Source: an uncultured virus (IMG/VR IMGVR_UViG_3300009443_000004) | Taxonomy: Duplodnaviria; Heunggongvirae; Uroviricota; Caudoviricetes | Direction: 5' to 3' (one strand) | IMG/VR virus record: IMGVR_UViG_3300009443_000004 | Location: 1 to 64,000 of that record | Length of the DNA stretch: 64,000 nt | In this document: positions 42,518-48,533 of the stretch, one piece after another | Layout: the number at the start of each line of letters is the position of its first letter | Numbering within the stretch: position 1 is the first letter of the stretch | The notes under the pieces: model-generated | The model's database searches: none | Seen by the model: only the letters and a program-made list of their open reading frames with translations | What the model was told of the DNA's origin: nothing | Position numbers and translations under genes: made by a program

Positions 42518-42847
42518 ATGGTTTACTTTAGAAAACTAAACATCAATGAGTCTACTGGCTCAGCAACAATCATTGTGAGCTCTGCTCCAATGTCACAGAA
42601 ACAAACTACACTTGCTGGTTTGTCTGTGGGAACAAGAACTCAAGGAAACATCTCCTTTGGTGTTCTTTCACTAATAGACCCTGAAACTAATCAGGTGATG
42701 CGTAGTGACCACCCTACAATCAAACAGCTTGGAGCTAAGTTGAATGTAGGTGATGAGCTACCTAACTTCAAACTGTCTGACCAAAAGGTTGTCAACCTAC
42801 AGACTGGTGAGGAGAATGAGAACCTCTTCTGGGTTGAACAAGCCTAG
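42518..42847 (+). CDS. Early hypothetical protein, paralog A
   Basis: About 70% identical to 43404..43742 by manual alignment. Confidence 0.85.
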   Translation: MVYFRKLNINESTGSATIIVSSAPMSQKQTTLAGLSVGTRTQGNISFGVLSLIDPETNQVMRSDHPTIKQLGAKLNVGDELPNFKLSDQKVVNLQTGEENENLFWVEQA

Positions 42848-42856
42848 ATGAAGTAC

Positions 42857-42889
42857 AGGGGTGTGTGTAACAGCACACCTCTTTTTTTT
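42857..42889 (+). terminator. Intrinsic terminator
   Basis: GGTGTG-TGTAACAG-CACACC followed by a T-run. Confidence 0.8.
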
Positions 42890-43146: not shown

Positions 43147-43175
43147 AAGGTGTGTGTAAAAGCACATCTTTTTTT
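43147..43175 (+). terminator. Intrinsic terminator
   Basis: AAGGTGTG-TGTAAAAG-CACATCTT plus T-run. Confidence 0.75.
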
Positions 43176-43180
43176 AAACA

Positions 43181-43202
43181 ACTGCTCCCTTCCCATAATA
43201 TG
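43181..43202 (+). promoter_or_regulatory. Phage promoter-like motif copy 2
   Basis: ACTGCTCCCTTCC-CATAA-TATG. Confidence 0.65.
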
Positions 43203-43297
43203 TACTGGGAATGCATCCTGGGGAAGCAAGGCCTGCGGAGGCTACTGCTTAATACACCTACCAGAGGAGGTTCTACGGATGCACCAGTACTTTTTTT
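43202..43297 (+). ncRNA. Candidate small structured ncRNA (three-way junction)
   Basis: GTACTGG/CCAGTAC and TGCATCC/GGATGCA closing stems, two inner hairpins, promoter motif upstream and T7 downstream. Confidence 0.6.
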
Positions 43298-43346
43298 ACT
43301 TTAACTGCTACTGCTCATACAATCTTATACCATCCATATAACTTTC

Positions 43347-43403: not shown

Positions 43404-43742
43404 ATGGAAACAAATTCAGTTTATTTTAGAAAGCTCAATATCAATGAGTCAACAGGAAGTGCAACTATTATTGCATCAGATGTACCATTGATACAAAAAG
43501 CTACTACATTAGCAGGCGTTAATGTAGCAACAAGAACACAGAACAACATCACATTTGGCGTATTAAGCCTAATAGATCCAGAGACTGGACAAGTAATGCG
43601 TTCTGATCATCCAGTCATCAAACAGTTAAGTGCTAAACTTAATAGAGGTGATGAGATGAAAGGCTTCAAGCTATCTGATAATCCTGTGTTAAACCTAACA
43701 ACAGGAGAAGAATCAGGTATGTTTTGGATAGAAGCAGTGTAA
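43404..43742 (+). CDS. Early hypothetical protein, paralog B
   Basis: Paralog of 42518..42847. Confidence 0.85.
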   Translation: METNSVYFRKLNINESTGSATIIASDVPLIQKATTLAGVNVATRTQNNITFGVLSLIDPETGQVMRSDHPVIKQLSAKLNRGDEMKGFKLSDNPVLNLTTGEESGMFWIEAV

Positions 43743-43765
43743 ACCTGCAGTAAAAGGTAAAAACT

Positions 43766-43809
43766 CTACAGATCTGGTGTAACAACCAGGTTTGTAGTTG
43801 TTTTTTTTA
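43766..43809 (+). terminator. Intrinsic terminator
   Basis: CTACAGATCTGG-TGTAACAA-CCAGGTTTGTAG followed by a T-run. Confidence 0.75.
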
Positions 43810-43902
43810 TTTAAATGTGTATAGCATTATAAATGTGAGGTCTCATACCCACAATATACCACCTTTTACCACTATCATAACTATCATAGCACATTAATAT
43901 AT

Positions 43903-44095
43903 TAATATAGCTAACATAAGAGCATAAACATTAAATTGGGTATGGTACGGAGATTGACAATTGATTTGCAAGTCATGCGTCCACGTTTATCATCACTCTT
44001 ATGCTAGCTTATATTACAAGAGTAACTATTACACTCAACAATACTACATGGGTAATGTCTGTCTCTTCCTCTATAGGATAATAGACATAGTACCC
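43903..44095. other. Intergenic multi-hairpin structured element
   Basis: ~20-bp inverted repeat 43903-43922/43996-44016 and a second hairpin 44050-44095. Confidence 0.5.
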
Positions 44096-44135
44096 GGAAT
44101 CTTATTAATCAAATGTCTAAATTAAATAAACAATT

Positions 44136-48277: not shown

Positions 48278-48354
48278 GGTCCTATAGCTCAACTGGATAG
48301 AGCAACAGCCTTCTAAGCTGTAGGTTCTAGGTTCAAATCCTAGTGGGATCACCA
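48278..48354 (+). tRNA. tRNA-Arg(TCT)
   Basis: Cloverleaf, anticodon loop CTTCTAA, GTTCAAATC T-loop, encoded CCA. Confidence 0.93.
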
Positions 48355-48443
48355 GGCCGGATGATGGAATTGGTAGACATGACAGACTTAAAATCTGTTG
48401 AACTGGATAGTTCGTGTGGGTTCAAGTCCCACTCCGGCTACCA
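48355..48443 (+). tRNA. tRNA-Leu(TAA)
   Basis: GGCCGGA/TCCGGCT acceptor, loop CTTAAAA, long variable arm, CCA. Confidence 0.93.
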
Positions 48444-48517
48444 GGACTCTTAGCTCAGTTGGTCAGAGCACTCCGCTCATAACGGATAGGTCATAGGTTC
48501 AAGTCCTATAGGGTCCA
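48444..48517 (+). tRNA. tRNA with CAT anticodon (Ile2 or Met)
   Basis: GGACTCT/AGGGTCC acceptor, loop CTCATAA; ends ACCT rather than ACCA. Confidence 0.88.
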
Positions 48518-48533
48518 CCTTAAATGTAACATT

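What the first reader, a model, noticed from the sequence alone, without database searches (positions are those of the whole stretch)
43181..43297. Candidate novel phage small RNA: ~90-nt three-way junction with its own promoter and U-tract
Seen: 43202-43290 is ~55% GC by hand count in an AT-rich genome and folds end to end. GTACTGG(43202-08) pairs with CCAGTAC(43284-90) and TGCATCC(43212-18) with GGATGCA(43277-83). Inside are two arms, AAGCA..GCCT-GCGG-AGGC..TGCTT and ACCT-N8-AGGT. The 5' end is exactly the G of the TATG in the repeated promoter-like motif, a terminator lies just upstream and T7 follows the 3' end. It is the only motif copy not followed by a credible protein gene. Inference: a discrete early ncRNA (decoy, anti-defence or regulatory). 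I do not recognise a tRNA, SRP or hammerhead core in it.
Basis: partly seen in the sequence, partly recalled or inferred. Interest (0 to 1): 0.8.

Follow-up and report, generated by a model that had tools for sequence, protein, structure and literature searches.

The report
New folded RNA of crAss-like phages
A virus of bacteria carries an optional, roughly 90-letter RNA gene whose Y-shaped fold with touching loops is kept by matched mutations in very distantly related viruses; it fits no catalogued RNA family and probably acts on something in the host early in infection, though that job is untested.

Summary
The element at 43202-43290 is real: 55% GC against 33%, folding z -4.3, no Rfam match. 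Pattern scans found it in 44 IMG/VR contigs and 42 metagenome contigs, giving 39 distinct cores. Compensatory changes confirm the closing stems and long arm (88.5% of cells paired vs 76.7% shuffled) and reveal a loop-loop pair (C-G in 36, G-C in 3, mismatch in 0 of 39). The overlapping frame is open in only 13 of 35 homologues. The phage is crAss-like. The RNA is an accessory cassette: deleted in a near-identical relative, undetected in 30 close relatives (mostly fragments; two near-complete), yet present in phages with 25-26% terminase identity, with no constant neighbour gene. Promoter and 3' end are inferred; expression is not shown. Best reading (0.4): a stable early RNA that binds a conserved host component by shape. 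Rivals: new ribozyme, cis leader, small-molecule aptamer. It may be among Fremin 2023's candidates, whose alignments I could not read.

The parts
43147..43175 (+). Terminator-like hairpin (9 bp) plus T7 ending the upstream unit; near-copy of 42857-42882
   Evidence: (family D4)
43181..43202 (+). Repeated phage-specific motif (ACTGCTCCCTTC ... TATG), putative early promoter; function inferred
   Evidence: 6 copies of the 8-mer vs 0.60 expected; 5 same-strand vs 0 opposite-strand copies of the 12-mer in 18 kb, 12-mer chosen post hoc
43202..43290 (+). The structured RNA (89 nt). P0 43202-08/43284-90; 3-nt bulge 43209-11; P1a 43212-18/43277-83; internal loop 43219-21/43275-76
   Evidence: GAA at the bulge columns in 19 of 36
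43222..43274 (+). Conserved core: P1b 43222-25/43271-74; P2 43226-34/43239-48 with bulge 43244; loop L2 43235-38; junction 43249-56 (UUAAU..A invariant); P3 43257-59/43265-67; loop L3 43260-64; junction 43268-70 (variable, 2-4 nt)
   Evidence: anchored pair counts over 39 distinct cores; pair list
43237..43262 (+). Loop-loop (kissing) pairs G43237-C43262 and G43238-C43261
   Evidence: first pair C-G in 36, G-C in 3, mismatch in 0 of 39; second pair invariant; L354 separates this swap from the P2 closing-pair swap
43291..43297 (+). T7 directly after the closing stem; putative 3' end and right boundary of the cassette
   Evidence: cassette absent between the two T runs in L009
43347..43368 (+). 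Next copy of the motif, ahead of the 112-aa ORF 43404-43742, so the downstream gene has its own start signal
43150..43341 (+). 63-codon ORF overlapping the RNA: rejected as a conserved gene
   Evidence: frame open across the RNA in 13 of 35 homologues; no Pfam or PHROG hit

Best explanation
A free-standing, stable early RNA of crAss-like phages. SHOWN: a conserved fold with a long variable closing helix, a three-way junction, an invariant UUAAU..A strand and a two-pair contact between its two loops; it is an optional cassette placed among small early genes and exchanged between phages. INFERRED: it is transcribed from the repeated early motif (probably by the virion RNA polymerase), ends at the U-tract, is protected at both ends by the closing helix, and folds into a compact pseudoknotted domain whose invariant face binds a conserved HOST component (an RNA-binding or anti-phage defence protein or RNP), titrating or inhibiting it in trans. 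The target is inferred to be the host's because the core is almost unchanged between phages whose own terminases share 25-26% and whose start signals differ.
For: Structure: 88.5% of cells paired vs 76.7 +/- 0.7 shuffled and 32.5-47.5% slid, 25 of 32 pairs with double changes; 56 compensatory events on a tree vs none in 4660 of 4938 control column pairs; kiss 39 of 39 paired. Plus strand: 85 G-U vs 21 A-C cells. Not coding. No constant neighbour gene among the 39 loci examined, output partly cut. Behind each phage's own repeated motif in G000 (5 copies), L336 (12), L339 (6), L338 (3), each with 0 on the other strand. Terminator-like end in 21 of 36 vs 61 of 288. Accessory and exchanged: absent in L009; 0 of 30 relatives with terminase 76-100% identical, including 2 records at least 90% complete; present at terminase identity 56-67% and 25-26%; L014 and L015 share 98.6-99.8% flanks but only 45 of 53 core bases, while L015 equals L042 at 53 of 53. 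crAss-like phage with a DFDID giant protein in the MCP-identical record G006. Precedent for phage RNA mimics: pseudo-ToxI (PMC3475682, abstract).
Against: No partner, target or activity identified; nothing here tests binding. No discrete transcript shown. 15 of 36 homologues lack a terminator-like end by my test, and no convincing repeated motif was found upstream in L337 (1 copy) or L335 (weak). Most relatives without it are fragments. In phi14:2 early transcripts had no detectable common upstream motif (10.1101/2020.03.07.982082, passages), so the promoter reading is unproven. P3 never varies, so covariation cannot support it. All members were found with patterns drawn from the core, which inflates apparent invariance. 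The host is uncertain: terminase hits are Bacteroidota phages but the best capsid hit (28.6%) is a phage recorded on Leptolyngbya.
Confidence: 0.4

Rival explanations
1. A new class of small self-cleaving ribozyme that processes early transcripts. The topology (long hairpin, 7-8-nt invariant junction strand, short hairpin, loop-loop contact) recalls a type III hammerhead (recalled).
For: Invariant junction bases and a kissing contact; no fixed neighbour gene; an earlier unchecked note reports a twister-like remnant in a crAss-like early leader.
Against: No Rfam ribozyme model matches even at E up to 10; the hammerhead core motifs (recalled) are absent and the second junction strand is variable (12 different sequences in 39); a long closing helix would keep products together; no circularly permuted form appeared among the non-member hits scored.
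Confidence: 0.17
2. A cis-acting leader module (5' stabiliser, pause or antitermination element like HK022 put RNA, recalled) at the head of longer early transcripts.
For: It starts at the presumed start site; 15 of 36 lack a terminator-like end; in L099, L354 and L359 the core is one arm of a larger multi-hairpin RNA; an earlier unchecked note reads a similar element in another phage as a long leader.
Against: In the window the next gene has its own motif copy and L009 keeps that gene and motif without the RNA; downstream genes are unrelated from phage to phage; U-rich tract directly after the stem in 18 of 36 vs 30 of 288.
Confidence: 0.15
3. A riboswitch-like aptamer without an expression platform that binds a small molecule (for example a nucleotide immune signal) and acts as an RNA sponge.
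For: Same overall plan as the purine aptamer: three-way junction of two hairpins, closing stem, L2-L3 contact (PMC2847212, passages); protein sponges for such signals are known in phages (listing).
Against: The strand that carries the ligand-pairing pyrimidine in purine aptamers is variable here; no Rfam riboswitch match; no RNA sponge of this kind turned up in my searches.
Confidence: 0.1
4. A mimic of the 23S rRNA sarcin-ricin loop that decoys a ribosome-attacking enzyme or a translation factor.
For: The common allele shares 10 consecutive bases with E. coli 23S rRNA at position 2657 of rrlA; that this is the sarcin-ricin loop is recalled.
Against: A match of 10 or more to the rRNAs arises in 154 of 1000 shuffles; 3 of 39 cores, the window's among them, change the first G of GAGA to C together with the partner loop; the base after AGG is free; the bulged-G strand (recalled) is absent.
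Confidence: 0.05
5. A base-pairing antisense RNA, a small protein gene, or a DNA-level foldback/terminator without RNA function.
For: The U-tract makes it look like a large terminator; a 63-codon frame overlaps it.
Against: Frame open in 13 of 35; G-U far exceeds A-C on the plus strand; a tertiary contact is conserved; no second match of the RNA body in its own genome.
Confidence: 0.08

Closest known systems
Early intergenic non-coding RNAs of crAss-like Cellulophaga phage phi14:2 (10.1101/2020.03.07.982082, passages read)
   Same: crAss-like phage, early region, non-coding, function unknown
   Different: Those are long and shown to be transcribed; this one is about 90 nt, defined by covariation, with no sequence match in the phage collection
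Purine riboswitch aptamer (PMC2847212, passages read)
   Same: Three-way junction of a closing stem and two hairpins with an L2-L3 contact
   Different: Hairpins of 9 and 3 bp, no first junction strand, no conserved J3/1 pyrimidine, no expression platform or linked metabolic gene, no Rfam match
Pseudo-ToxI of phage PhiTE (PMC3475682, abstract read) and other phage RNA mimics
   Same: Phage non-coding RNA that could act in trans on a host protein; spread by recombination
   Different: Single copy, not a repeat array; no host RNA that it copies was found
Hammerhead ribozyme, type III (recalled)
   Same: Junction topology and loop-loop contact
   Different: Catalytic core bases absent; no Rfam match
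Candidate structured RNAs of IMG/VR (Fremin 2023, PMC10690425)
   Same: Same source collection and type of evidence; the family could be one of the 8495 unnamed candidates
   Different: Could not be checked: the alignment files were unreadable

Membership tests
Any Rfam 15 family (tRNA, SRP, ribozymes, riboswitches, antitoxin RNAs, pRNA) | Match to a covariance model at gathering score, or any match over the element at E up to 10 | tested here: not met
   window; homologues; weak sub-threshold hits lay elsewhere or on the other strand
tRNA / tmRNA | Cloverleaf found by ARAGORN | tested here: not met
   only three tRNAs at 48278-48519
Purine riboswitch | Three-way junction of closing stem and two hairpins | tested here: met
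Purine riboswitch | L2-L3 loop-loop pairing | tested here: met
   two pairs, one covarying, 39 of 39 paired
Purine riboswitch | Conserved ligand-pairing pyrimidine in J3/1 | tested here: not met
   J3/1 has 12 different sequences in 39 cores
Purine riboswitch | 5' UTR position with expression platform before purine-related genes | tested here: not met
   unrelated small early genes follow
Hammerhead ribozyme | Core CUGANGA and GAAA strands (recalled) | tested here: not met
   junction strands are UUAAU..A and a variable 2-4 nt
Self-cleaving ribozymes in general | Site-specific self-cleavage | not testable with these tools
   needs in vitro transcription
Type III antitoxin mimics (pseudo-ToxI) | Tandem repeats resembling a host antitoxin | tested here: not met
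   one copy per genome (the weak second hit in G025 has broken stems)
Type III antitoxin mimics (pseudo-ToxI) | Neutralises a host toxin | not testable with these tools
   host unknown
Sarcin-ricin loop mimic | Invariant GAGA tetraloop with bulged-G motif (recalled) | tested here: not met
   CAGA in 3 of 39 including the window; 10-nt match has 154 of 1000 chance rate
phi29-type packaging RNA (recalled) | Present in every phage of the group, being essential | tested here: not met
   0 of 2 near-complete close relatives carry it; deleted in L009 at this site
Discrete promoter-to-terminator small RNA gene | Mapped 5' and 3' ends in infected cells | tested here: inconclusive
   one 151-nt depth-2 contig at 43159-43309 in 1 of 4 RNA runs laid; contigs cannot show ends or strand
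crAss-like phage (host genome of the element) | Crassvirus-type capsid protein and giant protein with DFDxD | tested here: met
   PF23898 at E 2.9e-30; DFDID in an ORF of at least 3367 aa of G006, whose capsid protein is 100% identical; the window's own record lacks that part

The most novel reading that the evidence does not exclude
A horizontally traded family of phage RNA aptamers: a riboswitch-like pseudoknotted junction with no expression platform, made at the start of infection to soak up a nucleotide immune signal or to jam a conserved anti-phage protein, that is, an RNA counterpart of phage sponge proteins; the other structured RNAs that occupy the same slot in relatives would be further members of such an RNA arsenal.
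Probability: 0.15. Interest if true: 0.9.

Novelty: new variant of a known kind. Interest (0 to 1): 0.62.

Why it matters
Early non-coding RNAs of crAss-like phages are known to exist but have no assigned function. This family gives a short, well-bounded RNA with a structure model, natural compensatory alleles of its tertiary contact, and natural plus/minus phage pairs, so cleavage, ligand binding and protein partners can be tested directly with synthetic RNA even without a cultured host. Near-identical cores in phages with 25% terminase identity point to a conserved host target; finding it would add a phage RNA effector class or, under the ribozyme rival, a new catalytic fold.

Tried and rejected
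First collection pattern had a gap set too long and found 0; uninformative. Blastn against 50,697 phage records: no match for the window, 3 short chance matches for the L042 allele. Prokaryote genomes: 1 pattern hit, not a member. Search for P3 variants: 0 of 11 new loci were members. Second hit in G025 (25.8 bits) rejected, stems broken. RNA-seq: 11 runs listed as RNA or possibly RNA held 0.04-0.15 of the words; I laid 4; one contig covered the element, three covered the downstream gene or spacer; depth 2-3, no ends, DNA not excluded: no evidence either way. Sigma-70 scan: 10 sites vs 7.7 expected, none at the element. A 96-nt z-score scan at step 40 did not list the element among its top 16 of 150 windows (windows were out of register with it; terminator hairpins ranked highest), and the inner 60 nt alone fold no better than shuffles (z -0.16): thermodynamics alone does not single out the core. 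My first junction register (A43225 with U43249, used) was replaced after new alleles showed A-U 35, U-A 3, A-A 1 for 43225-43271. Upstream-repeat test stopped after 31 of 36 loci and was mixed; one search stopped too and was redone. Complementarity of the 5' strand to the promoter motif was considered and dropped, since motifs differ between carriers while the strand does not. Paper searches for the sequence motifs and for such an RNA found no description; a Crassvirales review had no passage on non-coding RNA or promoters (PMC10136315). PMC3258123 and PMC12926258 (passages) added only background.

Full report
OBSERVATION. 43202-43290 is 55.1% GC against a window mean of 32.7% and folds end to end at -38.3 kcal/mol, z -4.28, 0 of 200 shuffles as stable. 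A 9-bp hairpin with T7 precedes it, T7 follows it, and it begins 20 nt after a motif that occurs 6 times vs 0.60 expected. The other early copies of the motif precede protein ORFs. Rfam and ARAGORN find only three tRNAs in the window and nothing over the element at E up to 10.

THE PHAGE. The capsid protein matches Pfam Crass_capsid at E 2.9e-30; terminase hits are gut crAss-like and Flavobacterium phages at about 25%; the best capsid hit is a phage recorded on Leptolyngbya at 28.6%, then Cellulophaga phi17:2 and phi4:1 at 25%. G006, whose capsid protein is 100% identical, has an ORF of at least 3367 aa with DFDID, the motif of the crAss-like virion RNA polymerase (10.1101/2020.03.07.982082, passages). 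The element lies just after the strand switch, among small rightward genes. A Bacteroidota host is an inference.

THE FAMILY. Pattern scans of IMG/VR gave 28 members of 40 hits, 38 of 43, the same 38 contigs with a pattern leaving P3 free, 0 members among 11 new hits with another and 6 members among 7 new hits with the junction strand free: 44 contigs, a number of them near-identical to the window. Metagenomes gave 42 members of 44 hits by inspection; prokaryote genomes 0 of 1. That is 39 distinct cores. All were found through core patterns, so invariance is biased upward.

STRUCTURE. On 35 sequences 88.5% of cells pair vs 76.7 +/- 0.7 in shuffles and 32.5-47.5% when partners are slid; 25 of 32 pairs have double changes. 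On a tree there are 56 compensatory events over these pairs, while 4660 of 4938 control column pairs have none; the tree comes from the same alignment, so this is a rough control. The model: closing helix P0, a 3-nt bulge, P1a, an optional internal loop, P1b (4 bp), P2 (9 bp, one bulge) with a GYSG loop, an 8-nt strand with invariant UUAAU..A, P3 (CCU/AGG) with loop ACSAG, and a variable 2-4-nt strand. The new feature is a loop-loop contact: G43237-C43262 is C-G in 36 cores, G-C in 3 and mismatched in none; the G-C form falls at two places on the tree (window lineage and L372), though shared origin by recombination is not excluded; L354 has the window's closing pair but the common kiss, so the two swaps are separable. 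Because GG cannot pair with itself, the contact is between L2 and L3, within or between molecules. P3 never varies and rests on plausibility alone. G-U cells outnumber A-C 85 to 21, favouring the plus strand. In L099, L354 and L359 the core is one arm of a larger RNA with extra hairpins.

NOT A PROTEIN GENE. The frame of ORF 43150-43341 is open across the RNA in 13 of 35 homologues and shifts where the short junction strand changes length; no Pfam or PHROG hit.

AN EXCHANGED CASSETTE. L009, 96.6% identical downstream, lacks exactly the stretch between the two T runs. The model finds 0 of 5 and 0 of 16 other relatives (the 8 hits of 24 were known carriers) and 0 of 30 records picked from 80 terminase relatives, two of them at least 90% complete, the rest fragments. 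Carriers have terminases 56-67% (4 records) or 25-26% (4 records) identical to the window's. L014 and L015 share 98.6-99.8% of their flanks but 45 of 53 core bases, and L015's core equals L042's at 53 of 53. Neighbour genes differ from phage to phage (output partly cut). In 4 of 6 genomes examined the RNA follows that phage's own repeated same-strand motif, different in each; L335 gave a weak motif and L337 none; motifs were chosen post hoc. A U-rich tract or hairpin terminator follows in 21 of 36 vs 61 of 288 random positions.

EXPRESSION. Of 4 marine or seawater RNA runs laid, one has a 151-nt, depth-2 contig at 43159-43309, which starts before the motif; contigs show neither ends nor strand, and DNA is not excluded. 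Transcription is therefore not shown.

MECHANISM. Shown: fold, tertiary contact, non-coding status, patchy distribution and exchange. Inferred: early transcription from the motif, termination at the U-tract, stability from the closing helix, and action in trans on a conserved host component (0.4), because the core is constant where phage proteins and start signals are not, and the downstream gene does without it. Rivals: new self-cleaving ribozyme (0.17), cis leader (0.15), small-molecule aptamer (0.10), antisense/coding/DNA-only (0.08), sarcin-ricin mimic (0.05; the 10-nt 23S match has a chance rate of 154 in 1000 and is broken in the window's allele).

COMPARISON AND NOVELTY. It is built like a purine aptamer (PMC2847212, passages) or a type III hammerhead (recalled) but fails their defining sequence tests; it sits where phi14:2 has unexplained early non-coding RNAs; phage RNA mimics have a precedent in pseudo-ToxI (PMC3475682, abstract). 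Searches found no description. Fremin 2023 (PMC10690425; abstract and part 1 of 5 of the text; tables searched) lists 8495 unnamed IMG/VR candidates whose alignment files I could not read, so prior automatic detection cannot be excluded. An earlier unchecked note on a genome holding the L042 allele describes an array of separately terminated early units with a shared signal, which agrees but is not independent support.

VERDICT. A real, apparently uncatalogued family of pseudoknotted three-way-junction RNAs carried as an exchangeable early cassette by crAss-like and other aquatic-type phages; function untested. Interest 0.62.

Noticed in passing
L016:2771-2870; L028:2678-2810; L011 and L013:2786-2890: Relatives carry different structured elements in the same slot between the two paralogous genes: a four-way junction plus terminator (z -3.5), a multi-arm fold (z -4.1), and a stem plus terminator (z about -3); none in Rfam.
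   Followed up: partly
L099, L354, L359, L372 around the core: A longer subtype: the core is flanked by a 5' hairpin and a 3' hairpin, the latter with a shared AUGUAC loop in three of the four, and in three an outer helix closes the whole.
   Followed up: partly
window 42518-42847 and 43404-43742: Two paralogous unknown genes (109 and 112 aa) open the early region; no Pfam or PHROG hit; widespread in relatives.
   Followed up: no
L011, L013, L016, just after the first early gene: The promoter-like motif forms the 3' arm of a terminator-like hairpin in these relatives, hinting at a hairpin-linked start signal.
   Followed up: no
L337:1650-1900 (also L058, L140): A further shared non-coding stretch follows the RNA in this lineage; it folded no better than shuffles in the two pieces tried.
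   Followed up: partly
L014, L015, L016, about 2630-2720: A shared non-coding element beginning ACTTGTACCACTTAC with a variable inner hairpin; z +0.85 in L014.
   Followed up: partly
window 48278-48519: Three adjacent tRNA genes: Arg(UCU), Leu(UAA), Met(CAU).
   Followed up: no
L338:7081-10648 (G028): A cluster of over 20 tRNA genes with a weak tmRNA-model hit, 1.3 kb from the RNA on the other strand.
   Followed up: no
L336, L338, L339 early regions: Other copies of each phage's repeated motif are also not followed by an ORF, so more small RNAs may sit there.
   Followed up: no
window 43743-44135: A strong terminator (43766-43807) followed by about 330 nt without a credible gene.
   Followed up: no
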